From NCBI RefSeq assembly GCF_000027125.1, contig NC_017626.1: DNA of 64,000 nucleotides. One strand, 5' to 3'. The stretch's first letter is position 1; every line of letters starts with the position of its first letter. The DNA comes from Escherichia coli 042 (GTDB taxonomy: Bacteria > Pseudomonadota > Gammaproteobacteria > Enterobacterales > Enterobacteriaceae). The notes under the pieces are model-generated. The model was not told the DNA's origin, did no database searches, and saw nothing but the letters and a program-made list of their open reading frames with translations. A program made the position numbers and the translations under genes. Positions 1 through 49,625 of this stretch are shown one piece after another.

Positions 1-159
1 ACCAGACTTAGCGCCTTTCCCAGTGGGCGTAATTGTTACAGACAGTCTGGACATGGACAGCGCGGAGAAACCGGAGCGTACATGTCGTACGTGAGGATTT
101 CGAGCACTGCCCAGGGCCAAACTGGCAAATAAAATAGCCTGATGGGATAGGCTGTTAGC
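1..159 (-). CDS. Partial ORF downstream of glrK running off the window edge; expected gene here is yfhG/qseG but frame and start are unresolved
   Basis: Hand translation of the minus strand: one frame is open across 1-159 and upstream into glrK; another frame has an ATG overlapping the glrK stop (TAATG) but gives only a 47-aa ORF. Not in ORF track. Confidence 0.3.
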
Positions 160-160
160 A

Positions 161-1588
161 TTATTTCGTGTTTTTCGACGACGGCAATTCAATGCGGAAG
201 CAAACGTCTTGCCCGCTCTCGTCGACCAGATACAGTTCCCCTTGCATACGGCGAATACAATCCCTGGCAATGCTTAATCCCAGACCGCTGCCCTTCACCG
301 CCCCTTTTCGCTGGTGGCTTCCCTGAAAAAAGGGTTCAAAGATCATGGCGCGTTCCTCTTGCGGAATGGGTGTGCCTGTATTGATGACATCAATATAAAC
401 CCGCGCGCCATGTAAACTGCTGCGAAGGCAAATGTTACCGGATTCAGTCCCGTAGTGCACAGCATTGGAGTAAAGATTATCCAGTACGCTCATCAGCAGC
501 ATTGGCTCCGCCAGGCAAGCTGTTGCTTGGAGATCGACGTCGGTATGCATCATTTTAGCCCGTGCGGGCAGGCTATGAGCAGAAACTACTGTCTCCACCA
601 GCGGTGCTAATTCAACATTCTCCAGTTCCACCGCACTGTCCGCCTGTTTACGGTTGTAATCAAGCAGTTGTTCGATCAGTTTTTGCAAATTGCGGCTGCT
701 GCTATCGAGGATGCTCACCACCTCTTTTTGCTCTGGCGTAAGCGGCCCGACAACCTGGTCAGCCAGTAATTCAGTGCCCTCGCGCATACTTGCCAGCGGC
801 GTTTTTAATTCATGAGATAAATGTCTTAAGAATTGATGACGTTGGGATTCCAGCCATGACAGGCGCTCACTTAACCAAAGAATACGTTGCCCAACCGAGC
901 GTAACTCGCTCGGTCCACTGAACGAGACACTATTGCCCAGAGAACGCCCTTCCCCCAGCCGGTTGATCATGCGCTCGATATTTTTCACCGGACCGATAAT
1001 CATCCTCGTGAAAAGTAGCACCATCACCAGACTCACCAGAAATAACACCAGCGATTGCCAACCAAAATATTGCCCACGTTCGGCGATTTCACGCTGAAGT
1101 TGCTGCCCACGAGAGAACACCACTGTGCGCGTGGCCTGCACCATTTCGGTATTGGCACTGGCAAAGGCTTCAAGACGCGCGGCGGCGGCGGCATCGGGAC
1201 CACTGTTGTTACACTGAAGTTGGGCCAGATTGTTCAAGTCCTGACGCAATGCCTGGTAAAGTTTATCGTCTGGCAGTACGCCTGCGTGGGCATCGAGCAT
1301 TTCGCTGTAACGCTTGCGCTGGCTTTGATAAACCTTCGCAAGCGTAGGGTCGTCCAGCACGCAATACTGACGGTAGCTACGCTCCATCTCCAGTGCCGCG
1401 TTGGTCATCGCTTCACTACGCCGGGCATCAATAAGCGTAGTGCGGTTAACCAGCGCCGCCTGATCGCTAAGTGCATTCAGGCTTTGCCAGGCTTGCCATG
1501 CCAGCACCAACAGGGGTAGCAGAATCAGCAAAAATGCCAGCATTACCAGTTGTCGTAATGAGCGGGGAAAAACGGGCCAGCGTTTCAA
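161..1588 (-). CDS. glrK: Sensor histidine kinase GlrK (QseE)
   Basis: ORF 161..1651 translation recognised (transmembrane N-terminus, HELKTPLASM H-box, ATPase domain). Start trimmed to TTG at 1588 (..TLKRWPVF..), giving 475 aa. Confidence 0.85.
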   Translation of the reverse strand: MKRWPVFPRSLRQLVMLAFLLILLPLLVLAWQAWQSLNALSDQAALVNRTTLIDARRSEAMTNAALEMERSYRQYCVLDDPTLAKVYQSQRKRYSEMLDAHAGVLPDDKLYQALRQDLNNLAQLQCNNSGPDAAAAARLEAFASANTEMVQATRTVVFSRGQQLQREIAERGQYFGWQSLVLFLVSLVMVLLFTRMIIGPVKNIERMINRLGEGRSLGNSVSFSGPSELRSVGQRILWLSERLSWLESQRHQFLRHLSHELKTPLASMREGTELLADQVVGPLTPEQKEVVSILDSSSRNLQKLIEQLLDYNRKQADSAVELENVELAPLVETVVSAHSLPARAKMMHTDVDLQATACLAEPMLLMSVLDNLYSNAVHYGTESGNICLRSSLHGARVYIDVINTGTPIPQEERAMIFEPFFQGSHQRKGAVKGSGLGLSIARDCIRRMQGELYLVDESGQDVCFRIELPSSKNTK

Positions 1589-2066
1589 GGTGTTACTCTC
1601 GTCAGACGCGAATAGCCTGATGCTAACCGAGGGGAAGTTCAGATACAACAAAGCCGGGAATTACCCGGCTTTGTTATGGAATAAGGCGGTGCCTAACTCG
1701 ACGTTTCGCCCGATGGTTGATATAGCTACGCTGATATCAGAAGTTGGACGGCAGGCACCTTGTTGTGCGTCATTCGAATTTTATGTAGCACGTCCCGAAG
1801 GGGCTGACATAAGTCGGTGAATGAGCCACTGGTTACTATTATGCAGTAACTGTGCCAATAAAGAAAATAGTTTGGTAACGTACTGATTATACGCCGCTTT
1901 GAGGGATTTATGGCTTCTTCGCTATTTGAATGTAAATCAGCCACTGTGTCGCTAAAAAGAGACAACTTAAGATAAACTTATTAGATAATATTAAAATCAA
2001 TAAGTTAAATGTCGCCAGAAAGCGACACGGCACACCACCCATTGTCGTGATTTACAGACACAAAAA

Positions 2067-2088
2067 AGCTCCCGAAGTTGGGAGCTTA
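2067..2088 (-). terminator. Rho-independent terminator downstream of purL
   Basis: GC hairpin aagctccc-gaagtt-gggagctt followed by a T-run on the minus strand. Confidence 0.6.
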
Positions 2089-2109
2089 TAATAGCGGTTG
2101 GTGCTTAAT

Positions 2110-2139
2110 GCCGGATGCGGCGTGAATGCCTCATCCGGG
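2110..2139. repeat. REP / palindromic unit
   Basis: gccggatgcggcgtgaatgcctcatccggg matches the enterobacterial REP consensus; lies just 3' of purL. Confidence 0.7.
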
Positions 2140-2163
2140 CTGCAAAACCAATGGGCTGACGAC

Positions 2164-5100
2164 TTACCCCAACTGCTTACGCGCATTGCGGAAAATGCGC
2201 ATCCATGGGCCATCCTCGCCCCAGTTTTCCGGATGCCAGGAGTTGCTGACAGTACGGAAAACACGTTCCGGGTGCGGCATCATAATGGTGACTCGACCAC
2301 TTTCAGTCGTGACTGCCGTAATACCATTCGGAGAACCGTTCGGGTTAGCCGGGTAGGTTTCAGTGACTTTGCCGAAGTTATCGACATAGCGCAGTGCCAC
2401 CAGCCCTTTGCTTTCCAGTGCCGCCAGATGCGCCGCATCACGCACTTCCACGCGCCCTTCACCATGAGATACAGCAATCGGCATTTGCGAGCCCACCATC
2501 CCCTGCAACAGCAGAGACGGGCTTTGGGTTACTTCAACCAGGCTGAAACGCGCTTCAAAGCGATCGGAGGTATTGCGCACAAAACGTGGCCACAACTCAC
2601 TACCTGGGATCAGTTCGCGCAGATTAGACATCATCTGGCAACCGTTACATACCCCCAGCGCCAGCGTTTGCGGACGGTGGAAGAAGGTTGCAAACTCATC
2701 GCGTACACGGTCATTGAACAGGATAGACTTCGCCCAACCTTCACCGGCACCCAGCACATCACCGTAGGAGAAACCACCGCACGCGACCAGGGCGTGGAAA
2801 TCCTCCAGGCCCGTGCGTCCAGCCAGCAGGTCACTCATATGCACATCGATTGCATCGAAGCCTGCACGGTGGAAAGCAGCCGCCATTTCAACATGCGAGT
2901 TCACGCCCTGCTCACGCAGTACGGCAACTTTCGGACGTGCGCCAGTAGCAATATACGGTGCTGCCACATCTTCGTTGATATCGAACGACAGTTTCACATT
3001 CAGGCCCGGATCGGCGTCGTTGGATTTCGCCTGATGTTCCTGATCGGCACATTCAGGGTTGTCACGCAGGCGCTGCATCTGCCAGGTAGTTTCTGCCCAC
3101 CAGACACGCAACGTGGTGCGGCTTTCGCTGAATACAGTCTGCCCGTTGGCGGTAATCACAAAACGGTCACCGGAAACCGCCTGGCCAACATAATGGACGC
3201 AATCAGCAAGGCCATGCAGTGCCAGTACCGCTTCAACTGCTTTACGGTCAGCGGCTCGAACCTGAATCACCGCACCCAGTTCTTCGTTAAACAACGCCGC
3301 CAGGCGATCGTCACCCAGAGTGGCGATATCCGCGTCAATGCCGCAATGACCAGCAAAGGCCATTTCCGCCAGCGTTACCAGCAGGCCGCCATCAGAGCGG
3401 TCGTGGTACGCGAGCAGCTTACGCTGTGCTACCAGCGCCTGAACCGCGTCATAGAAACCTTTCAGTTGCGCGACGTCGCGTACATCTGCCGGTTTGTCGC
3501 CAAGCTGACGATAAACCTGCGCCAGCGCCGTTGCGCCCAGCGCGTTATTGCCTTTGCCCAGATCAATCAGCAGTAATGCGTTATCTTCGGTAGAAAGCTG
3601 CGGCGTGATGGTGTGACGCACATCTTCCACACGGGCAAATGCAGAAATCACCAGCGACAGCGGCGACGTCATTTCGCGCTCTTCGTTACCTTCCTGCCAG
3701 CGGGTTTTCATCGACATAGAGTCTTTACCCACCGGGATCGTCAGGCCCAGCGCCGGACAAAGTTCTTCGCCCACAGCTTTAACGGCTTCATACAGGCCCG
3801 CATCTTCACCAGGGTGGCCTGCCGCCGCCATCCAGTTGGCGGAAAGTTTAATGCGTTTGATATCGCCAATCTGTGTTGCGGCAATATTGGTTAACGCTTC
3901 ACCGACCGCCAGACGGGCAGAGGCGGCGAAATCCAGCAGCGCAACCGGCGCACGCTCGCCAATCGCCATCGCTTCACCATAGTAGCTGTCAAGGCTGGCG
4001 GTAGTGACCGCGCAGTTAGCGACCGGCACCTGCCACGGACCCACCATCTGATCGCGCGCTACCATGCCGGTTACGCTGCGGTCACCAATGGTCACCAGGA
4101 AAGTTTTCTCCGCCACGGTCGGCAGGTGCAGCACGCGTTTCACCGCGTCAGCAATGGTAATCCCTTCACGAACCAGCGCATCACCCTTCGCTTTCAGCGT
4201 TTGTACTTCGCGGGTCATCTTCGGCGTTTTACCAAGCAGTACGTCCAGCGGCAGATCGATCGGCTGATTATCAAAATGACGATCGTGCAAAGAAAGATGC
4301 AGTTCTTCGGTCGCTTCACCAATCACCGCGTATGGCGCGCGCTCACGCTTACACAGTTCGTCAAACAGCGGTAACTGATCGGCAGCAACCGCCAGCACGT
4401 AGCGTTCCTGGGATTCGTTACACCAGATTTCCAGCGGGCTCATGCCCGGTTCGTCGCTCAGGATATCGCGCAGTTCGAATTTACCGCCGCGCCCGCCGTC
4501 GCTCACCAGTTCCGGCATGGCGTTAGAAAGACCGCCTGCGCCAACGTCGTGGATAAACAGGATTGGGTTGGCATCACCAAGCTGCCAGCAACGGTCGATC
4601 ACTTCCTGGCAGCGACGCTCCATCTCCGGGTTGTCGCGCTGTACGGAAGCGAAGTCGAGGTCGGCATCAGACTGACCAGACGCCATGGAAGACGCCGCGC
4701 CGCCGCCAAGACCGATGTTCATTGCCGGGCCGCCGAGAACGACCAGCTTCGCACCAACGTTGATCTCGCCTTTTTGTACGTGATCGGCACGAATATTGCC
4801 GATCCCGCCCGCCAGCATGATCGGTTTGTGATAACCGCGCAGCTCTTCGCCATTGTGGCTGTTCACTTTTTCTTCATAAGTACGGAAGTAGCCGTTCAGT
4901 GCCGGACGACCAAATTCGTTGTTAAATGCCGCGCCGCCCAGCGGGCCTTCGGTCATGATGTCCAGCGCGGTGACAATGCGCTCAGGCTTACCGAAATCTT
5001 CTTCCCACGGCTGTTCGAAGCCTGGAATTCGCAGGTTGGAAACGGAGAAACCTACCAGACCAGCTTTCGGCTTTGCGCCACGCCCGGTGGCACCTTCATC

Positions 5101-6051
5101 GCGGATTTCACCGCCGGAACCGGTCGCCGCGCCCGGCCACGGAGAAATCGCCGTCGGGTGGTTGTGAGTTTCGACTTTCATCAGAATATGCGCCGGTTCC
5201 TGATGGAAATCGTAGCGGCCCGTTTCGTGGTCAGCAAAGTAGCGGCCCACTTCAGACCCTTCCATGACGGCGGCGTTATCTTTATAAGCAGAGAGAACGT
5301 GATCCGGCGTAGTTTCGAAGGTATTTTTGATCATCTTGAACAGCGATTTCGGCTGCTGTTCACCGTCGATAATCCAGTCGGCGTTAAAAATTTTGTGGCG
5401 GCAGTGCTCAGAGTTCGCCTGAGCGAACATATACAGCTCGATGTCGTTCGGGTTACGACCAAGCTTTGTGAAAGCATCCTGCAGATAGTCGATTTCATCT
5501 TCCGCCAGTGCCAGGCCAAGACGCAGGTTAGCGTCGATTAGCGCCTGACGGCCCTGTCCCAGCAAATCAACGCTGGTGACCGGAGTCGGTTGATGGTGTG
5601 CAAACAGCTGCTCTGCATCATCTAAAGCAAAAAAGACCGTTTCCATCATGCGGTCGTGCAGTACAGCGGTAACTTGCTGCCATTGTTCATTGGTCAGCGT
5701 ACCGGCTTCTATATAGTAAGCCACGCCGCGCTCAAGACGGTTTACCTGTTGCAGCCCGCAGTTATGGGCAATATCGGTCGCTTTCGAAGACCAGGGAGAG
5801 ATGGTGCCAGGACGCGGGGTCACCAGCAGGAGTTTGCCTTGCGGGGCGTGGCTGGCGAGTGCCGGGCCATATTTCAGCAGGCGTTCAAGTTGTGCGTGCT
5901 CATCATCGTTTAACGGCGCATTGAGGTCAGCAAAATGGACATACTCGGCGTAAATAGTGTGAACCGGGAGCCTGGCAGCCTGAAAACGTGCCAGCAGTTT
6001 GTTGATTCGGAATGCCGACAATGCAGGCGAACCACGCAGAATTTCCATCAT
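2164..6051 (-). CDS. purL: Phosphoribosylformylglycinamidine synthase
   Basis: ORF 2164..6159 translation is PurL (FGAM synthetase with C-terminal glutamine amidotransferase). Start trimmed to ATG at 6051 ([14 protein letters not shown]), 1295 aa. Confidence 0.95.
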
Positions 6052-6126
6052 AAGTCTCTCGTCTTCTAAGCTTTCGGTGTACCCAAGGGGGGAAACGGGC
6101 GTCATTATAAAGAATCTGATGCGCTG

Positions 6127-6142
6127 ACGAAACCGTTTGCGT
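6127..6142. promoter_or_regulatory. Candidate PurR operator upstream of purL
   Basis: acgaaaccgtttgcgt is a 16-bp near-palindrome resembling the PurR box, about 80 bp upstream of the purL ATG. Confidence 0.5.
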
Positions 6143-6307
6143 GGAAATAAAATCACCATCGCGAATTAGCAACGCGTGCCGCCAATGGCTGTAATAAGTT
6201 GCCAACTGGCGCAGGTTTACGCAAAATGCCGCTCATTTATGAGTAAACCTTTCACTATTATTACGTTTTTTCAAGCTGGGACGCGCACGACACAGAGAAT
6301 TAACTAA

Positions 6308-8409
<2,102 letters not shown>

Positions 8410-10705: not shown

Positions 10706-11029
10706 TCGTTTTTCCTTAAACAAGGAATGCAGCCGTTCAGATTAGCCCTTACATCTCCCCAAAACTGAACGTGCGAGTTATTGAGGGTGCATGCTGCACT
10801 CCACACCAGAGCTTTGACGACACCACTCGTTTCAATGGGGGAATTCTGTGGCATGGTATAAAGCACAGCATAATCGCCAATAACGAAGCCAATTTTAATG
10901 TACTTCCGAATTGGCGGTCACGTTAATCTTTCCATCAATATTGTTTTCTTCGTAAAGGCTCGAGTTTTTATGCTAAAGATTACAAGTTGCTTGTAAAAGA
11001 TAACCGCCCTGATCCATAATCGCTCTTGT

Positions 11030-11108
11030 TGAGGGTGCGTGCTGCACAAAATTAAAGTTAAAAAGTAAAACCCCCGTTCCTTACCAGTTCGGGGGTTTTA
11101 CTTTATAA
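11030..11108 (+). ncRNA. ohsC: Candidate OhsC antitoxin sRNA (approximate ends)
   Basis: Plus-strand segment holding the second copy of a 19-nt direct repeat (11039-11057) shared with the shoB 5' region (10781-10799), ending in a hairpin plus T-run; -10-like cataat at 11025-11030. Confidence 0.45.
11081..11108. terminator. Bidirectional terminator (acpS operon / candidate ohsC)
   Basis: cccccg ... cggggg hairpin flanked by an A-run and a T-run. Confidence 0.6.
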
Positions 11109-12987: not shown

Positions 12988-14600
<1,613 letters not shown>

Positions 14601-14602
14601 TC

Positions 14603-14698
14603 AGCACACGAAACAGACCTGATATACATGGCTCTGCTAACTGCTTCGCTGCAGTTTCAGTTTACCGGTATATGGGGACCAACGCTGTTTCGTGTGCC
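14603..14698 (-). promoter_or_regulatory. rnc leader stem-loop (rncO-like RNase III autoregulatory site)
   Basis: 12-bp inverted repeat cacacgaaacag (14605-14616) / ctgtttcgtgtg (14685-14696) in the 5' leader of rnc. Confidence 0.6.
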
Positions 14699-14842
14699 GT
14701 GGCAACCTGGAGGTGCCAACCTTAAACTTCGGGGGAATATTCTATACACAACGACGGGGGATGTCGTTAGCCACGGGAGATTTATCTCATAAATAATTCA
14801 CGTTGTCGCCATAACGGCGACAACGTGAACGAAGATGGGCTA

Positions 14843-15832: not shown

Positions 15833-17632
<1,800 letters not shown>

Positions 17633-17829
17633 AAAGTATGATTATTGTGCCTTAATGCCCGGTTAACCAGGCTTTTAGAAGTCGCTGTTCTGAGCTTAAC
17701 GTCTGTATTAATAGAAACGCCGCATTCTACACTACAACATTGAGGCGAGGAAATGTTCATACCGTATGGATTGTGGTATCTGGAAACGTCCTCGCATTTG
17801 TTATGCAAAATGCAACAAAGCCAGTGAAA

Positions 17830-18309
17830 TCACTGGCTCGCGTCTTCCGAAGATGTTTCAAATCGCACAAGGCCAGGCGGCAATGCCACGCTTAAGATGA
17901 TCGGTTGCCATTCAGACCGGGCAGCAAACTTTCGAGAGCCGCCACGTGCAATCAGGAATCCACCAACGCCACCGAGAATCGCACCGCATAATGCTGCAAT
18001 ATCTGAAGCAAAGAGTAGCTGAAATAGTGAAGCGATGAGGAATAGTCCCACCAACGGCGACATATAAACCAGTAATGCGGAGCTAAGCAGGCTGCCTTCG
18101 GCGATCCCCAATTCCACTTTTTGCCCCGGCACTAACGGTTCATCACAGGGTACGACAATGGTATGCGTGGTTTGCGGGCCAAGTTTATTCAACACGCGGC
18201 TACCGCAACCGGCGCGTGAAGCGCAGCTGCTGCATGAGGCTTTAACATCACAACTAACCAGCGCCTGCCCGTTTTCCCAGGAGATGACGGTAGCCCACTC
18301 TTTGATCAT
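17830..18309 (-). CDS. rseC: Sigma-E regulatory protein RseC
   Basis: 159-aa ORF; position in the rpoE-rseABC operon. Confidence 0.9.
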   Translation of the reverse strand: MIKEWATVISWENGQALVSCDVKASCSSCASRAGCGSRVLNKLGPQTTHTIVVPCDEPLVPGQKVELGIAEGSLLSSALLVYMSPLVGLFLIASLFQLLFASDIAALCGAILGGVGGFLIARGGSRKFAARSEWQPIILSVALPPGLVRFETSSEDASQ

Positions 18310-19262
18310 TGCGCTGCCCCGAACTTAATATTCTCGGCAATGCGTTTCGCCGTTTGCGGCGGCAGTTCACCGACAATGGTGATTTCGGCGTTATCACGTA
18401 CGCTTGTACTGACGGTTCTGCGTCCGGTGCGCAACATCTGATCGGTGCTCGATGGCGTAGCGCGGTTAACGTTTACCGAAAAGCTGAATAATCCGTCGGA
18501 ATAGAGACGTGATTCGATAGGCATGTTGTCCATCGTCGGTAGCGGACGTCGACTACTGGAAACTTCGCTAAAACCCTGTGGCAACCAGGTTGGCGTCCAG
18601 CTGAATTTAGCTTTTTCACCTACAGGAACAGAAAGCAACGGCGGCAAATTTGCCTTCGCCAACGTCTGCATACTGCTGCTGATATCCTGATTGACATTAA
18701 AAGCAATCACGCGAAATTGTTCCAGCGTTTCACCATCGCGATCAAGGAGATCAACCCGCATCGGTAATTTCGATTCGGTGTCCATCCACACGATGTAGCT
18801 GTAGCGTGTACCATCTCGGGCAACCACACGAATGACTTCGCAAAGACGATCAGCAATACGCGTGCGCCCGACGGAGATAAAGTCGTAGTAAGGAGAAAGG
18901 CGTTTGAAATCGGTATAGATGAGCGATGGTAGAGAATCAACAATGTAATCGCCATTAAGCGTGAACGGTTCAAGTCCCGGTTCAAAATAGCTGATTTCAT
19001 TGCCGCGCTGTACCACTTCCCGGCGCGGGCCATCCATTTGCAACAATTGTGCAAGAGGACGGTTATCGAGGCGTGCATGTCGATAACGCAGAGACTCAAC
19101 ACCCTGTTTATTGATGCTGATGAATGACAGCTCGTAATTCAGTGACTGACTGGCCAGGTTCATCTGCTGTAATAACGCCCCGGACGCGGGAGTGGCCGAG
19201 GCGTTAGCAGAGAATAACAGGCTACCTGTCACTAATGACATGGCAAACCAAAGTTGCTTCAT
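18306..19262 (-). CDS. rseB: Sigma-E regulatory protein RseB
   Basis: 318-aa ORF with signal peptide. Confidence 0.92.
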   Translation of the reverse strand: MKQLWFAMSLVTGSLLFSANASATPASGALLQQMNLASQSLNYELSFISINKQGVESLRYRHARLDNRPLAQLLQMDGPRREVVQRGNEISYFEPGLEPFTLNGDYIVDSLPSLIYTDFKRLSPYYDFISVGRTRIADRLCEVIRVVARDGTRYSYIVWMDTESKLPMRVDLLDRDGETLEQFRVIAFNVNQDISSSMQTLAKANLPPLLSVPVGEKAKFSWTPTWLPQGFSEVSSSRRPLPTMDNMPIESRLYSDGLFSFSVNVNRATPSSTDQMLRTGRRTVSTSVRDNAEITIVGELPPQTAKRIAENIKFGAAQ

Positions 19263-24790: not shown

Positions 24791-24819
24791 GCCTGATGCG
24801 CTACGCTTATCAGGCCTAC
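24791..24819. repeat. REP / palindromic unit
   Basis: gcctgatgcgctacgcttatcaggcctac, REP-like palindrome. Confidence 0.65.
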
Positions 24820-24854
24820 ATGGCTCATGCAATATATTGAATTTGCACGATCTT

Positions 24855-38051: not shown

Positions 38052-38171
38052 ATGCCTGGCAGTTCCCTACTCTCGCATGGGGAGACCCCACACTACCATC
38101 GGCGCTACGGCGTTTCACTTCTGAGTTCGGCATGGGGTCAGGTGGGACCACCGCGCTAAGGCCGCCAGGCA
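38052..38171 (-). rRNA. rrfG: 5S ribosomal RNA
   Basis: 120 nt, near-identical to the E. coli 5S sequence as I remember it (reverse complement). Confidence 0.95.
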
Positions 38172-38262
38172 AATTCTGTTTATCAGACCGCTTCTGCGTT
38201 CTGATTTAATCTGTATCAGGCTGAAAATCTTCTCTCATCCGCCAAAACATCTTCGGCGTTGT

Positions 38263-41166
<2,904 letters not shown>

Positions 41167-41359
41167 TCACAACCCGAAGATGTTTCTTTCGATTCATCAT
41201 CGTGTTGCGAAAATTTGAGAGACTCACGAACAACTTTCGTTGTTCAGTGTTTCAATTTTCAGCTTGATCCAGATTTTTAAAGAGCAAATATCTCAAACAT
41301 CACCCGAAGATGAGTTTTGAGATATTAAGGCAGGTGACTTTCACTCACAAACCAGCAAG

Positions 41360-41435
41360 TGGCGTCCCCTAGGGGATTCGAACCCCTGTTACCGCCGTGA
41401 AAGGGCGGTGTCCTGGGCCTCTAGACGAAGGGGAC
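41360..41435 (-). tRNA. gltW: tRNA-Glu in the 16S-23S spacer
   Basis: 76-nt exact match to E. coli tRNA-Glu (GTCCCCTTCGTCTAGAGGCCCAGGACACCGCCCTTTCACGGCGGTAACAGGGGTTCGAATCCCCTAGGGGACGCCA) on the minus strand. Confidence 0.95.
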
Positions 41436-41520
41436 GTATCAGCCTGCTTCGCAAGACGCCTTGCTTTTCACTTTCTATCAGACAATCTGTGTGAGCACTG
41501 CAAAGCACAGTTCTTTAAGG

Positions 41521-43062
<1,542 letters not shown>

Positions 43063-43502: not shown

Positions 43503-46076
43503 TTACTGGACGGCGACAATCCGGTCTTCATTAACTTCCAGGCGAATAACTTTACCCGGAACCAATTCACCAGACAGTATTTGCTGTGCCAGCGGGTTTT
43601 CGATCTGCTGCTGGATAGCACGTTTCAGAGGACGTGCACCATAGACCGGATCGTAACCGTTCTCGCTCAGCAGTTTCAGCGCCTCGTCAGAAATGTGGAT
43701 TTCATAACCACGTTCTTCCAGACGTTTGTACAGACGTTTCAACTGAATCTGCGCAATCGACGCAATGTGCTGTTCACCCAGCGGATGGAAGACCACCACT
43801 TCATCGATACGGTTAATGAATTCCGGACGGAAGTTATGGCTTACCACACCGAGCACCAGCTCTTTCATGTGCGCATAATCCAGTTCACCGAAGCGTTCCT
43901 GAATCAAATCGGAACCGAGGTTAGAGGTCATAATGACAACCGTATTACGGAAGTCGACCGTTCTCCCCTGCCCGTCAGTCAGACGCCCATCATCCAGTAC
44001 CTGCAACAGAATGTTGAAGACATCCGGATGCGCTTTTTCCACTTCATCCAGCAGTATGACGGAATACGGACGACGACGCACCGCTTCGGTCAGGTAGCCA
44101 CCTTCTTCATAACCGACATATCCCGGAGGCGCACCAACCAGACGAGACACCGAGTGTTTCTCCATAAACTCGGACATATCGATACGGACCATCGCCTCGT
44201 CGCTATCAAACATAAAGTTCGCCAGCGCCTTACAAAGCTCAGTTTTCCCCACACCCGTTGGGCCGAGGAACAGGAATGAACCAATCGGGCGATTCGGGTC
44301 AGCAAGCCCTGCGCGGCTACGACGAATAGCGTTAGATACCGCATCAACCGCTTCGTTCTGACCAATAACGCGATGGTGCAGCTCTTGCTCCATACGCAGC
44401 AGTTTTTCGCGCTCGCTTTCCATCATGCGAGAAACCGGAATCCCCGTCCAACGCGCCAGCACTTCAGCAATTTCGGCGTCGGTCACTTTATTACGCAACA
44501 GACGCATAGTTTTGCCTTCGAGCTGCGTTGCGGCTTCCAGTTGCTTTTCCAGTTCCGGGATTTTGCCGTATTGCAGTTCAGACATCCGCGCCAGGTCCCC
44601 CACACGGCGAGCCTGTTCAATAGCGATTTTCGCCTGTTCCAGTTCCGCTTTAATGGTCTGCGTACCAGAAAGCGATGCCTTCTCTGCTTTCCACTCTTCT
44701 TCTAACTCAGAGTACTGACGTTCTTTGTCGCTCAGTTCTTCGTTGAGCATATCCAGACGTTTTTTACTGGCTTCATCAGACTCTTTCATTAACGCCTGTT
44801 GTTCCAGTTTGAGCTGGATGATACGGCGATCGAGTCGGTCGAGTTCTTCTGGTTTTGAGTCAATCTGCATACGAATGCTGGATGCTGCTTCATCGATCAG
44901 GTCGATGGCTTTATCCGGCAGCTGACGGTCAGCAATGTAGCGATGTGACAACGTCGCCGCTGCAACAATTGCCGGGTCAGTAATTTGCACATGGTGGTGC
45001 AGCTCGTAACGTTCTTTCAGGCCACGCAGAATCGCAATGGTATCTTCAACAGAAGGCTCGGCAACAAACACTTTCTGGAAACGACGTTCCAGCGCAGCAT
45101 CTTTTTCGATGTACTGGCGATATTCGTCAAGCGTCGTGGCACCTACGCAGTGCAATTCACCACGCGCCAGCGCCGGTTTCAGCATGTTTCCGGCGTCCAT
45201 TGCGCCATCTGCTTTACCCGCGCCGACCATGGTATGTAATTCGTCGATAAACAGGATGACGTTGCCTTCCTGTTTAGCAAGATCGTTAAGTACGCCTTTT
45301 AAACGTTCTTCAAACTCACCGCGATATTTCGCCCCAGCCACCAGCGCGCCCATATCCAGCGCCAGTACGCGGCGGCCTTTCAACCCTTCCGGCACTTCGC
45401 CGTTGATGATACGCTGCGCCAGACCTTCAACGATGGCAGTTTTACCGACGCCTGGTTCACCAATCAGTACCGGGTTATTTTTAGTACGACGTTGCAGCAC
45501 CTGAATGGTACGGCGAATTTCTTCATCACGACCAATCACCGGATCGAGTTTACCCTGTTCGGCTCGTTCGGTAAGGTCGATGGTATATTTTTTCAAAGCC
45601 TGACGTTGGTCTTCAGCACCTTGATCGTTCACGCTTTCACCTCCACGCATTTGTTCAATCGCTTGAGTAATGTTGGCGGTGGTCGCCCCTGCTGCTTTCA
45701 GGATGTCGGCCAGCGTGCCGCGAGACTCAAGTGCCGCCAGAACGAACAGTTCTGACGAGATAAAGTTATCACCACGTTTTTGCGCCAGCTTGTCGCAAAG
45801 ATTAAGAACGCGCACCAGATCCTGTGATGGCTGGACATCACCACCAGTACCTTCAACCTGCGGTAAACGATTTAATGCCTGATTGATATCTGTGCGCAAC
45901 TGGCCAGCATTAATGCCAGCGGATGTTAATAAAGGACTAACCGAACCCCCTTCCTGATTCAGCAGGGCGCTCATTAAATGAAGTGGTTCGATGAATTGGT
46001 TGTCGTGCCCGAGTGCAAGTGATTGGGCATCGGCAAGAGCAAGCTGGAATTTATTAGTAAGACGATCCAGACGCAT
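43503..46076 (-). CDS. clpB: Chaperone / disaggregase ClpB
   Basis: ORF 43503..46088; start trimmed to [18 protein letters not shown] (857 aa); two AAA+ modules ([16 protein letters not shown]). Confidence 0.96.
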
Positions 46077-46114
46077 AACTCCTCCCATAACGGATCAAAG
46101 TTGCTACTGGAGAT

Positions 46115-46144
46115 TAAATGAGGTCATCCCTCAATTATTCAAGG
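46115..46144 (-). promoter_or_regulatory. Sigma-32 heat-shock promoter of clpB
   Basis: Minus strand CCTTGAA, 14-nt spacer, CCTCATTTA. Confidence 0.7.
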
Positions 46145-46205
46145 TTATTGACCAGATTAATGTGAAAAGAAAATCACGCGTACCGGATCGTCTTGATTCT
46201 TTAGG

Positions 46206-49446: not shown

Positions 49447-49500
49447 TGACAGCGTGAAAACAGTACGGGTACTGTACTGAAGTCACTTAAGGAAACAAAC

Positions 49501-49548
49501 ATGAAACACACACCGTTTTTCTTCGCATTCTTTTTTACCTTCCCCTGA
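49501..49548 (+). CDS. pheL: pheA leader peptide (Phe-rich)
   Basis: Hand translation: MKHTPFFFAFFFTFP* (15 aa, 7 Phe). Not in ORF track. Confidence 0.9.
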   Translation: MKHTPFFFAFFFTFP

Positions 49549-49594
49549 ATGGGAGGCGTTTCGTCGTGTGAAACAGAATGCGAAGACGAACAAT

Positions 49595-49625
49595 AAGGCC
49601 TCCCAAACCGGGGGGCCTTTTTTAT
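49595..49625 (+). terminator. pheA attenuator terminator
   Basis: aggcctccc-aaacc-ggggggcct hairpin followed by TTTTTTATT. Confidence 0.8.

What the first reader, a model, noticed from the sequence alone, without database searches (positions are those of the whole stretch)
1589..2066. Long (~575 bp) AT-rich spacer between purL and glrK with palindromes and short SD-preceded ORFs
The region holds a hairpin at 1651-1680 (aaagccggg-aatta-cccggcttt), an inverted repeat gtgtcgct / agcgacac (about 1940-2030), a 21-codon ORF with a gaggg RBS (ATG 1910 to 1975; MASSLFECKSATVSLKRDNLR) and a 79-aa minus-strand ORF (1726..1965). It is more than a promoter needs, so a small RNA or small protein is plausible. 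I have an unverified recollection that an sRNA candidate was reported in the K-12 glrK(yfhK)-purL spacer.
Basis: inference. Interest (0 to 1): 0.3.

Follow-up and report, generated by a model that had tools for sequence, protein, structure and literature searches.

The report
Known sRNA gene glmY and promoter
The long spacer between purL and glrK in this E. coli window is not empty or mysterious: it holds the well-studied small RNA gene glmY, which helps control cell-envelope sugar synthesis, together with its elaborate promoter, and the small ORFs seen there are chance reading frames.

Summary
It is already explained. Rfam places GlmY (RF00128) at 1830..1683 on the minus strand (147 bits, gathering score 33). 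The K-12 annotation of glmY (b4441) maps to 1830..1647 with 183/184 identity.

- **Inverted repeat:** the two halves of "gtgtcgct/agcgacac" are half-sites of two separate GlrR/QseF operators. They do not form one long palindrome.
- **Upstream control region:** it holds three TGTCN10GACA operators (the only three in 64 kb), two perfect IHF consensus sites, a sigma-54 -24/-12 element and the overlapping CATAAT -10. Together they match the published glmY control region.
- **Flanks:** the purL terminator and a REP element lie upstream. The weak qseEGF promoter lies downstream.
- **Conservation:** across 55 aligned enterobacterial loci exactly these blocks are conserved.
- **Small ORFs:** the 21-codon and 79-aa ORFs are not conserved in frame, even within Escherichia.

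This is already known and of low interest.

The parts
1647..1830 (-). glmY, the full-length 184-nt primary transcript. The 5' end is at 1830 (AGUGGCUCAUUC...) and the 3' end at 1647.
   Evidence: K-12 b4441 (2691157-2691340) maps here through the alignment with 183/184 identity. The fold is -64.2 kcal/mol with z = -5.5.
1683..1830 (-). The 148-nt part of GlmY covered by the Rfam model. It is the same length as the processed, active form reported in the literature.
   Evidence: RF00128 GlmY_tke1 scores 147.1 bits (gathering score 33, E 8.8e-34) over model positions 1-163 of 163. A consensus fold of 28 orthologues has 6 pairs with compensatory changes. The 184-nt to 148-nt processing is taken from PMC4152352.
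1647..1675 (-). The glmY intrinsic terminator hairpin: a 12-bp perfect stem and a 5-nt loop, followed by GUAUCU.
   Evidence: (I4) gives the arms. In one search it folds as the 3'-terminal stem-loop of the 184-nt RNA. The K-12 3' end coincides with the last base of the stem.
1842..1857 (-). Sigma-54 promoter element TGGCAC-N5-CTGCA, the -24/-12 class. It ends 12 nt upstream of the glmY 5' end.
   Evidence: one mismatch to TGGCACN5TTGCW. TGGCAc......TGCAT is conserved in 55 loci. The sigma-54 promoter is described in PMC3045617.
1838..1843 (-). CATAAT, the -10 hexamer of the overlapping weak sigma-70 promoter.
   Evidence: The sequence is read. PMC3045617 names CATAAT as the -10 that overlaps the -12 element.
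1876..1888 (-). Promoter-proximal IHF consensus site (AATCAGTACGTTA). I infer it to be 'IHF site 2'.
   Evidence: Perfect match to WATCARNNNNTTR. It corresponds to the conserved block TCA.t...tTAa in 55 loci. The paper reports two IHF-like regions flanking ABS3.
1947..1964 (.). GlrR/QseF operator TGTCGCTAAAAAGAGACA. It is the promoter-proximal one, which I infer to be ABS3.
   Evidence: Conserved block. The consensus TGTCN10GACA comes from PMC3045617.
1995..2007 (+). Distal IHF consensus site (AATCAATAAGTTA). I infer it to be 'IHF site 1', reported as essential for the sigma-54 promoter.
   Evidence: Perfect consensus match. Conserved block TTAA.t..tTGATtT. The mutational data are in PMC3045617.
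2010..2027 (.). GlrR/QseF operator TGTCGCCAGAAAGCGACA, which I infer to be ABS2.
   Evidence: It is the best-conserved operator block.
2043..2060 (.). GlrR/QseF operator TGTCGTGATTTACAGACA. It is the most distal one, which I infer to be ABS1.
   Evidence: Conserved block TGTCgg.a.....cGACA.
2066..2087 (-). purL intrinsic terminator: an 8-bp G+C-rich stem followed by UUUUGUGUCU.
   Evidence: I14.
2098..2151 (.). REP-type imperfect palindrome just downstream of the purL stop codon. Eighteen bp of it (2114-2131) are missing in K-12.
   Evidence: (I1) and the alignment gap. Calling it a REP element rests on my own knowledge of the GCCGGATGCGGCGTGAA...CATCCGGC consensus.
1613..1648 (-). Weak sigma-70 promoter of qseEGF (glrK). 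I infer a -35 TTGTAT at 1648-1643, a -10 TAGCAT at 1625-1620 and a start site near 1613.
   Evidence: [quoted passage not shown] The hexamers are my reading, and the consensus scan did not call them.
1889..1946 (.). Unconserved filler DNA between IHF2 and ABS3. It contains the Shine-Dalgarno-like motif, the ATG and the first 12 codons of the 21-codon ORF.
   Evidence: No consensus and variable length across 55 loci. Identity is 66-79% among Escherichia species, against 97-99% for glmY.

Best explanation
The spacer is the glmY locus of E. coli, and its layout on the minus strand runs as follows.

- **After purL:** purL ends with a REP element and an intrinsic terminator.
- **Upstream activating region (about 230 bp):** three GlrR/QseF operators (TGTCN10GACA) and two IHF sites feed a sigma-54 promoter. 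A weak sigma-70 promoter sits on top of it.
- **Transcript:** transcription starts at 1830 and ends at the hairpin at 1675-1647, giving the 184-nt GlmY.
- **Downstream:** a weak sigma-70 promoter follows, then glrK/qseE.

The mechanism is established in the literature and was not tested here.

- Phosphorylated GlrR binds the operators. IHF bends the DNA so that GlrR contacts sigma-54 RNA polymerase and opens the promoter.
- GlmY is trimmed at its 3' end to 148 nt.
- When glucosamine-6-phosphate is scarce, GlmY accumulates and sequesters the adaptor protein RapZ. This protects its homologue GlmZ from RNase E.

The small ORFs are chance reading frames.
For: **Shown here**
- **Rfam:** the GlmY hit scores 147 bits against a gathering score of 33. 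It beat the other member of its clan, and again in the whole-window scan.
- **K-12 annotation:** glmY b4441 lies at the homologous position with 183/184 identity.
- **Structure:** stable three-part fold with z = -5.5. The consensus structure over 28 orthologues has 6 compensatory pairs, for example UA/AU in 10 sequences and AU/CG in 11.
- **Operators:** there are exactly three TGTCN10GACA sites in 64 kb, and all lie at -117 to -230 relative to the start site.
- **Sigma-54 element:** present at 1857-1842.
- **IHF sites:** two of the five perfect IHF consensus matches in the window flank the proximal operator.
- **Synteny:** almost all of the 93 loci recovered with a GlmY pattern carry purL upstream and/or glrK downstream, as far as each sequence extends. 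They span Escherichia to Dickeya and Yersinia.
- **Promoter conservation:** in an alignment of 55 loci the conserved blocks are exactly the operators, the IHF sites, the -24/-12 element and +1.

**From the literature**
- Promoter architecture and its genetics: PMC3045617.
- The 184-nt to 148-nt processing and the RapZ decoy mechanism: PMC4152352 and the abstract of PMC7073468.
- The qseEGF promoter and the near absence of read-through: PMC6075780.
Against: - **Not tested in this strain:** transcription, processing and RapZ binding were not and could not be tested.
- **One base difference from K-12:** window 1777, RNA position 54, U instead of A. It lies in a predicted internal loop.
- **Site numbering is inferred:** I numbered ABS1-3 and IHF1/2 from the paper's wording ('two regions flanking ABS3'), not from its figures.
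- **Partial ascertainment bias:** the orthologues were retrieved with a pattern that fixes part of the 3' half of GlmY, so invariance there is partly built in.
Confidence: 0.97

Rival explanations
1. The 21-codon plus-strand ORF (1910-1975), preceded by GAGGG, encodes a real small protein. It would be transcribed divergently from inside the glmY upstream activating region.
For: - ATG start with a Shine-Dalgarno-like GAGGG 4 nt upstream.
- An ATG at the aligned position with a downstream stop is kept in K-12.
- The same holds in three of the five other Escherichia loci.
Against: - **Outside Escherichia:** the aligned segment mostly lacks a start codon, and where one occurs the frame encodes an unrelated sequence or holds in-frame stops.
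- **Within Escherichia:** E. whittamii has a stop at codon 4, and Escherichia sp. MOD1-EC7003 has no ATG and a frameshift. In the other three loci the frame stops two or three codons earlier, and nearly every residue in codons 2-10 differs.
- **Apparent conservation is DNA-level:** the only 'conserved' residues (VSLKRD) overlie the GlrR operator ABS3, so DNA-level constraint explains them.
- **No coding signature:** variable sites are spread 4/8/7 over codon positions 1/2/3, with no third-position excess. Against K-12 there are three nonsynonymous changes and one synonymous change.
- **No promoter or family:** no plus-strand sigma-70-like promoter was found and there is no NCBIfam match.
Confidence: 0.02
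2. The 79-aa minus-strand ORF (1965..1726) is a protein-coding gene overlapping the glmY promoter and the 5' part of glmY.
For: It is an open frame of 79 codons with a TTG start. The part inside glmY translates similarly in many genera.
Against: - **Not in the transcript:** 45 of its codons lie upstream of the glmY start site, so they are absent from the glmY transcript.
- **Collapses in close relatives:** in four of the five other Escherichia loci an in-frame stop 99 nt upstream of +1 cuts the ORF to 15-21 aa, and in the fifth it is 51 aa. Across genera its length runs from 0 to 142 aa.
- **Apparent conservation is RNA-level:** the conserved translation only mirrors the nucleotide conservation of the sRNA.
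- **No family match**.
Confidence: 0.01
3. GTGTCGCT (1946-1953) and AGCGACAC (2021-2028) pair with each other as a long-range stem in DNA (a cruciform) or in an RNA, forming a distinct structural element.
For: The two arms are 8 nt long and perfectly complementary (I12).
Against: - **Each arm has its own partner:** each is half of its own 18-bp palindrome (TGTC-N10-GACA). Any two such operators are therefore partly complementary to each other. ABS3 and ABS1 pair in the same way (I2).
- **No transcript covers both arms:** the region lies upstream of the glmY start site and downstream of the purL terminator, so no known transcript spans both.
- **Operator halves vary independently:** in orthologues they change without matching changes across operators.
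Confidence: 0.01

Closest known systems
GlmY (Rfam RF00128 GlmY_tke1; E. coli K-12 glmY b4441; formerly tke1/SroF)
   Same: - Same genomic position between purL and glrK.
- 183/184 nt identical to K-12.
- Full-length match to the covariance model.
- Same terminator, sigma-54/sigma-70 promoter, three GlrR operators and two IHF sites.
   Different: - One substitution, at window 1777 (RNA position 54).
- A polymorphic patch in the unconserved stretch 1894-1924.
- An 18-bp longer REP element near purL.

None of these differences touches a defined functional element.
GlmZ (Rfam RF00083, same clan CL00011)
   Same: It is a homologous sRNA with a similar fold. In many Enterobacterales (not E. coli) it is driven by the same sigma-54/GlrR/IHF promoter design (PMC3045617).
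   Different: - GlmZ lies downstream of hemCDXY, not next to glrK.
[quoted passage not shown]
- In the Rfam clan competition the window sequence scored best as GlmY.
Enhancer-dependent sigma-54 promoters with IHF-assisted looping (for example glnAp2 and nifH-type promoters, and the QseF-dependent rpoE P2 promoter)
   Same: - A -24/-12 element.
- Activator sites more than 100 bp upstream.
- IHF sites in between.
- A response-regulator enhancer-binding protein as activator (for rpoE; the rest is established knowledge).
   Different: Here the product is an sRNA, and a sigma-70 promoter overlaps the sigma-54 promoter and uses the same start site (PMC3045617).

Membership tests
GlmY sRNA (RF00128) | Scores above the Rfam gathering threshold over the full model, and better than the sister family GlmZ. 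| tested here: met
   147.1 bits against 33, model positions 1-163 of 163. The lower-scoring overlapping match from the same clan was discarded and the hit was reproduced.
GlmY sRNA (RF00128) | Position immediately upstream of glrK(qseE)-qseG-glrR(qseF) and downstream of purL, on the same strand. | tested here: met
   Window order on the minus strand is purL (stop codon at 2164-2166), glmY (1830-1647), glrK (start at 1588). Almost all of 93 loci from other genera show the same order as far as the sequence extends. The literature says the same.
GlmY sRNA (RF00128) | Conserved secondary structure: a 5' stem-loop, a central branched stem-loop and a terminator, supported by covariation. | tested here: met
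   The minimum-free-energy fold has z = -5.5. The consensus fold has 35 pairs, 6 with compensatory changes and few broken cells. The 3' half was partly fixed by the retrieval pattern.
GlmY sRNA (RF00128) | Sigma-54 -24/-12 promoter with three TGTCN10GACA GlrR sites more than 100 bp upstream and IHF sites flanking the proximal one. | tested here: met
   compared with the description in PMC3045617.
GlmY sRNA (RF00128) | Expressed as a 184-nt RNA, processed to 148 nt, that binds RapZ and stabilises GlmZ. | not testable with these tools
   Known for K-12 (PMC4152352). It is inferred here from near-identity of the sequence.
Small protein gene (sORF) | Start codon, frame and stop conserved in related genomes, with substitutions biased to synonymous sites. 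| tested here: not met
   loss of the start codon, premature stops, frameshifts, and variable sites spread 4/8/7 over codon positions.

The most novel reading that the evidence does not exclude
The Escherichia-restricted 21-codon ORF (1910-1975) lies antisense to glmY, inside the DNA loop between IHF2 and ABS3. It might be translated from a weak divergent transcript as a young, lineage-specific micropeptide. Alternatively, its transcription might modulate GlrR/IHF occupancy of the glmY enhancer.
Probability: 0.02. Interest if true: 0.3.

Novelty: already known. Interest (0 to 1): 0.04.

Why it matters
This adds nothing new biologically. GlmY and its dual sigma-54/sigma-70 promoter have been characterised since 2008-2011.

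The result has practical value for the scan. A 575-bp gap with no annotated feature next to glrK in PGAP-annotated E. coli genomes is an annotation gap, not unexplored sequence. The RefSeq record identical to this window lists no glmY, whereas K-12 does.

It also gives a useful control. Conserved 'peptide' stretches in small ORFs can be produced entirely by overlapping DNA operators or RNA genes.

Tried and rejected
- **Sigma-70 and terminator consensus scan of 1400-2300:** it found only the purL terminator and no sigma-70 promoter. It is too strict for the weak glmY and qseE sigma-70 promoters and for the glmY terminator, whose tail is U-poor.
- **Rfam E-value search of 1-7000:** the only other match is a sub-threshold Xanthomonas sX9 hit at 26-92 (31 bits, below the 44-bit gathering score). 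I treat it as chance.
- **First sigma-54 regular expression on the orthologues:** it was too strict and missed most loci, so I replaced it with an alignment.
- **NCBIfam scan of four small ORFs in the spacer:** no family matched.
- **Literature search for ribosome-profiling or small-protein reports tied to glmY:** three papers came up and none was about a protein in this spacer, judged from titles and abstracts. I did not read them.
- **Long-range pairing of the 8-bp inverted repeat:** rejected, because each arm belongs to its own operator palindrome.
- **glmY-glrK operon reading:** the K-12 literature reports virtually no read-through and a separate qseEGF promoter. Other organisms such as Proteus are reported to have an operon (abstract). 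I did not pursue this.

Full report
**Observation**

The window is E. coli chromosome. A 901-bp query spanning the spacer matches 5,425 of 5,426 complete E. coli genomes, several at 100%.

On the minus strand, purL ends with its stop codon at 2164-2166 and glrK/qseE begins at TTG 1588.

- The hairpin has perfect 12-bp arms at 1647-1658 and 1664-1675 (I4).
- The 8-bp inverted repeat is at 1946-1953 and 2021-2028 (I12).
- The 21-codon ORF runs from 1910 to 1975, and the 79-aa ORF from 1965 to 1726 on the minus strand.

**What it is**

An Rfam scan places GlmY (RF00128) at 1830..1683 on the minus strand. It scores 147.1 bits against a gathering score of 33, over the whole model, and beats the sister family in its clan (repeated).

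K-12 MG1655 annotates glmY (b4441) at 2691157-2691340. Through the pairwise alignment this maps to window 1830..1647. Identity is 183/184.

The 184-nt RNA folds into a 5' stem-loop, a central branched stem-loop and a 3' terminator hairpin, at -64.2 kcal/mol with z = -5.5 against shuffles.

The RefSeq genome identical to the window annotates nothing between qseE and purL. This is why the spacer looks empty.

**The control region**

All positions below are relative to +1 = 1830.
- **Sigma-54 element:** TGGCAC-N5-CTGCA at 1857-1842.
- **Overlapping sigma-70 -10:** CATAAT at 1843-1838.
- **GlrR/QseF operators:** three perfect TGTCN10GACA palindromes at 1947-1964, 2010-2027 and 2043-2060, that is -117 to -230. 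They are the only three in the 64-kb window, where shuffles give 0.83 on average.
- **IHF sites:** two of the five perfect matches to the IHF consensus WATCARNNNNTTR in the window lie at 1876-1888 and 1995-2007, flanking the proximal operator.

This is the architecture published for E. coli glmY:
- Three TGTCN10GACA GlrR sites more than 100 bp upstream.
- Two IHF-like regions flanking ABS3.
- A sigma-54 promoter overlapped by a sigma-70 promoter whose -10 is CATAAT.
- ABS2, ABS3 and the distal IHF site are essential.

The source is PMC3045617, which cites Reichenbach et al. 2009. My assignment of the names ABS1-3 and IHF1/2 to coordinates is inferred from that wording.

Any two operators of this kind are partly complementary, and ABS3 and ABS1 pair in the same way (I2). 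It is not a separate structure.

**The rest of the spacer**

- **Upstream of ABS1:** the purL intrinsic terminator at 2087-2066, then a REP-type palindrome at 2098-2151. Eighteen bp of the REP are missing in K-12.
[quoted passage not shown] This puts the start site near 1613. I read the hexamers as TTGTAT (1648-1643) and TAGCAT (1625-1620). That reading is an inference, and the consensus scan did not call them.
- **Only stretch without an assigned role:** 1889-1946, between IHF2 and ABS3.

**Comparative evidence**

A single scan of one genome per species with a GlmY 3'-half pattern returned 93 loci, ranging from Escherichia, Citrobacter, Klebsiella and Kosakonia to Serratia, Yersinia, Pectobacterium, Brenneria and Dickeya. 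Almost all of them have purL upstream and/or glrK downstream, as far as the sequence extends.

An alignment of the 250 bp upstream of glmY in 55 of these loci shows conservation in exactly these blocks and essentially nowhere else: ABS1, ABS2, IHF1, ABS3, IHF2, TGGCAc-N6-TGCAT.AT and the +1 region. The stretch homologous to 1889-1946 has no consensus and varies in length.

Among Escherichia species the pattern is the same:
- glmY is 97-99% identical.
- The core promoter is 28-30 of 30 identical.
- ABS1 is 17-18 of 18 identical.
- The filler stretches 1889-1946 and 1965-1994 are only 50-79% identical.

A consensus fold of 28 diverse GlmY sequences keeps the structure, with 6 pairs showing compensatory double changes. 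The retrieval pattern fixed part of the 3' half, so invariance there is partly built in.

**The small ORFs**

*The 21-codon ORF.*
- An ATG at the aligned position is found in K-12, in four of the five other Escherichia loci and in a handful of other genera. In those other genera the frame encodes an unrelated sequence or holds in-frame stops.
- E. whittamii has a stop at codon 4. Another Escherichia species lacks the ATG and is frameshifted. In the remaining three the frame ends two or three codons early, and residues 2-10 differ almost completely.
- The only stretch that looks conserved (VSLKRD) lies over ABS3.
- Variable sites fall 4/8/7 on codon positions 1/2/3.
- Against K-12 there are three nonsynonymous changes and one synonymous change.

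*The 79-aa ORF.*
- It starts inside ABS3, and 45 of its codons lie upstream of the glmY transcription start.
- In four of the five other Escherichia loci it is cut to 15-21 aa by an upstream in-frame stop, and in the fifth it is 51 aa. Across genera its length ranges from 0 to 142 aa.

Neither ORF, nor two other ORFs in the spacer, matches an NCBIfam family. I conclude that they are chance frames.

**Mechanism (from the literature, not tested here)**

- GlrK/QseE, together with the lipoprotein QseG, phosphorylates GlrR/QseF.
- GlrR/QseF binds the three operators and, with IHF bending the DNA, activates sigma-54 RNA polymerase at the glmY promoter. The overlapping sigma-70 promoter gives basal expression.
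- GlmY (184 nt) is trimmed to 148 nt.
[quoted passage not shown] RapZ is the adaptor that otherwise hands GlmZ to RNase E.

**Verdict**

The locus is a textbook member of a known family, so novelty is 'already known' and interest is very low.

The only reading with any novelty left is that the Escherichia-specific 21-codon frame is a young micropeptide gene. I give that about 2%.

Noticed in passing
window 2098-2151 (indel at 2114-2131): A REP-type imperfect palindrome sits just after the purL stop codon. This strain carries 18 bp (GATGCGGCGTGAATGCCT) that K-12 lacks, so the K-12 copy is a truncated REP.
   Followed up: partly
window 1894-1924: This patch differs from K-12 at 8 of 31 positions, while the rest of the spacer is about 99% identical. 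It lies in the unconserved filler between IHF2 and ABS3 and covers the start of the 21-codon ORF. It may be a small recombination or mutation hotspot.
   Followed up: partly
window 1777: This is the only difference from K-12 inside glmY: RNA position 54 is U here and A in K-12. It lies in a predicted internal loop of the 5' stem-loop.
   Followed up: no
L002 (NZ_CP032515.1), against L001 (K-12): The PGAP-annotated RefSeq genome identical to the window lists no glmY feature between qseE and purL, whereas the K-12 record does. The 15 top records listed likewise show only qseE and purL under the match.
   Followed up: partly
L028 (E. coli E69), L011, L034, L054, L064: Other Escherichia lineages keep GlmY, the core promoter, ABS1 and the IHF sites almost unchanged. 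The spacers between sites are only 50-79% identical, and 14-15 of the 18 ABS2 positions are identical. In L028 this holds even though the N-terminal 200 aa of GlrK are 100% identical. The enhancer appears to evolve quickly between fixed motifs.
   Followed up: partly
L045 (CACSKA010000009.1): A contig labelled Chryseobacterium sp. 18061 carries an enterobacterial glmY-glrK locus, with the GlrK N-terminus 87.5% identical to E. coli. This is probably contamination or mislabelling of that assembly.
   Followed up: no
window 11028-49625 (several sites): Other Rfam gathering-level hits in the window, all known E. coli features:
- ohsC antitoxin RNA, 11028-11104 (+)
- rncO, 14516-14730 (-)
- AsrC antisense of rseC, 17514-18345 (+)
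- ES036, 24812-24854 (-)
- an rrn operon, 38054-43062 (-), with a spacer tRNA at 41363-41435 and StyR-44 at 41174-41282
- RyfD, 46057-46195 (-)
- Phe leader, 49500-49625 (+)
   Followed up: no
window 26-92 (-): A sub-threshold match to Xanthomonas sRNA sX9 (31.2 bits against a gathering score of 44, E 0.01) lies downstream of the glrK stop codon, where qseG is expected to begin. It is most likely chance.
   Followed up: no
window 1931-1939 and 2048-2056: A perfect 9-nt inverted repeat, TGTAAATCA / TGATTTACA, links the core of ABS1 with the sequence just before ABS3 (I9). The first arm lies in unconserved DNA, so it is probably chance.
   Followed up: no
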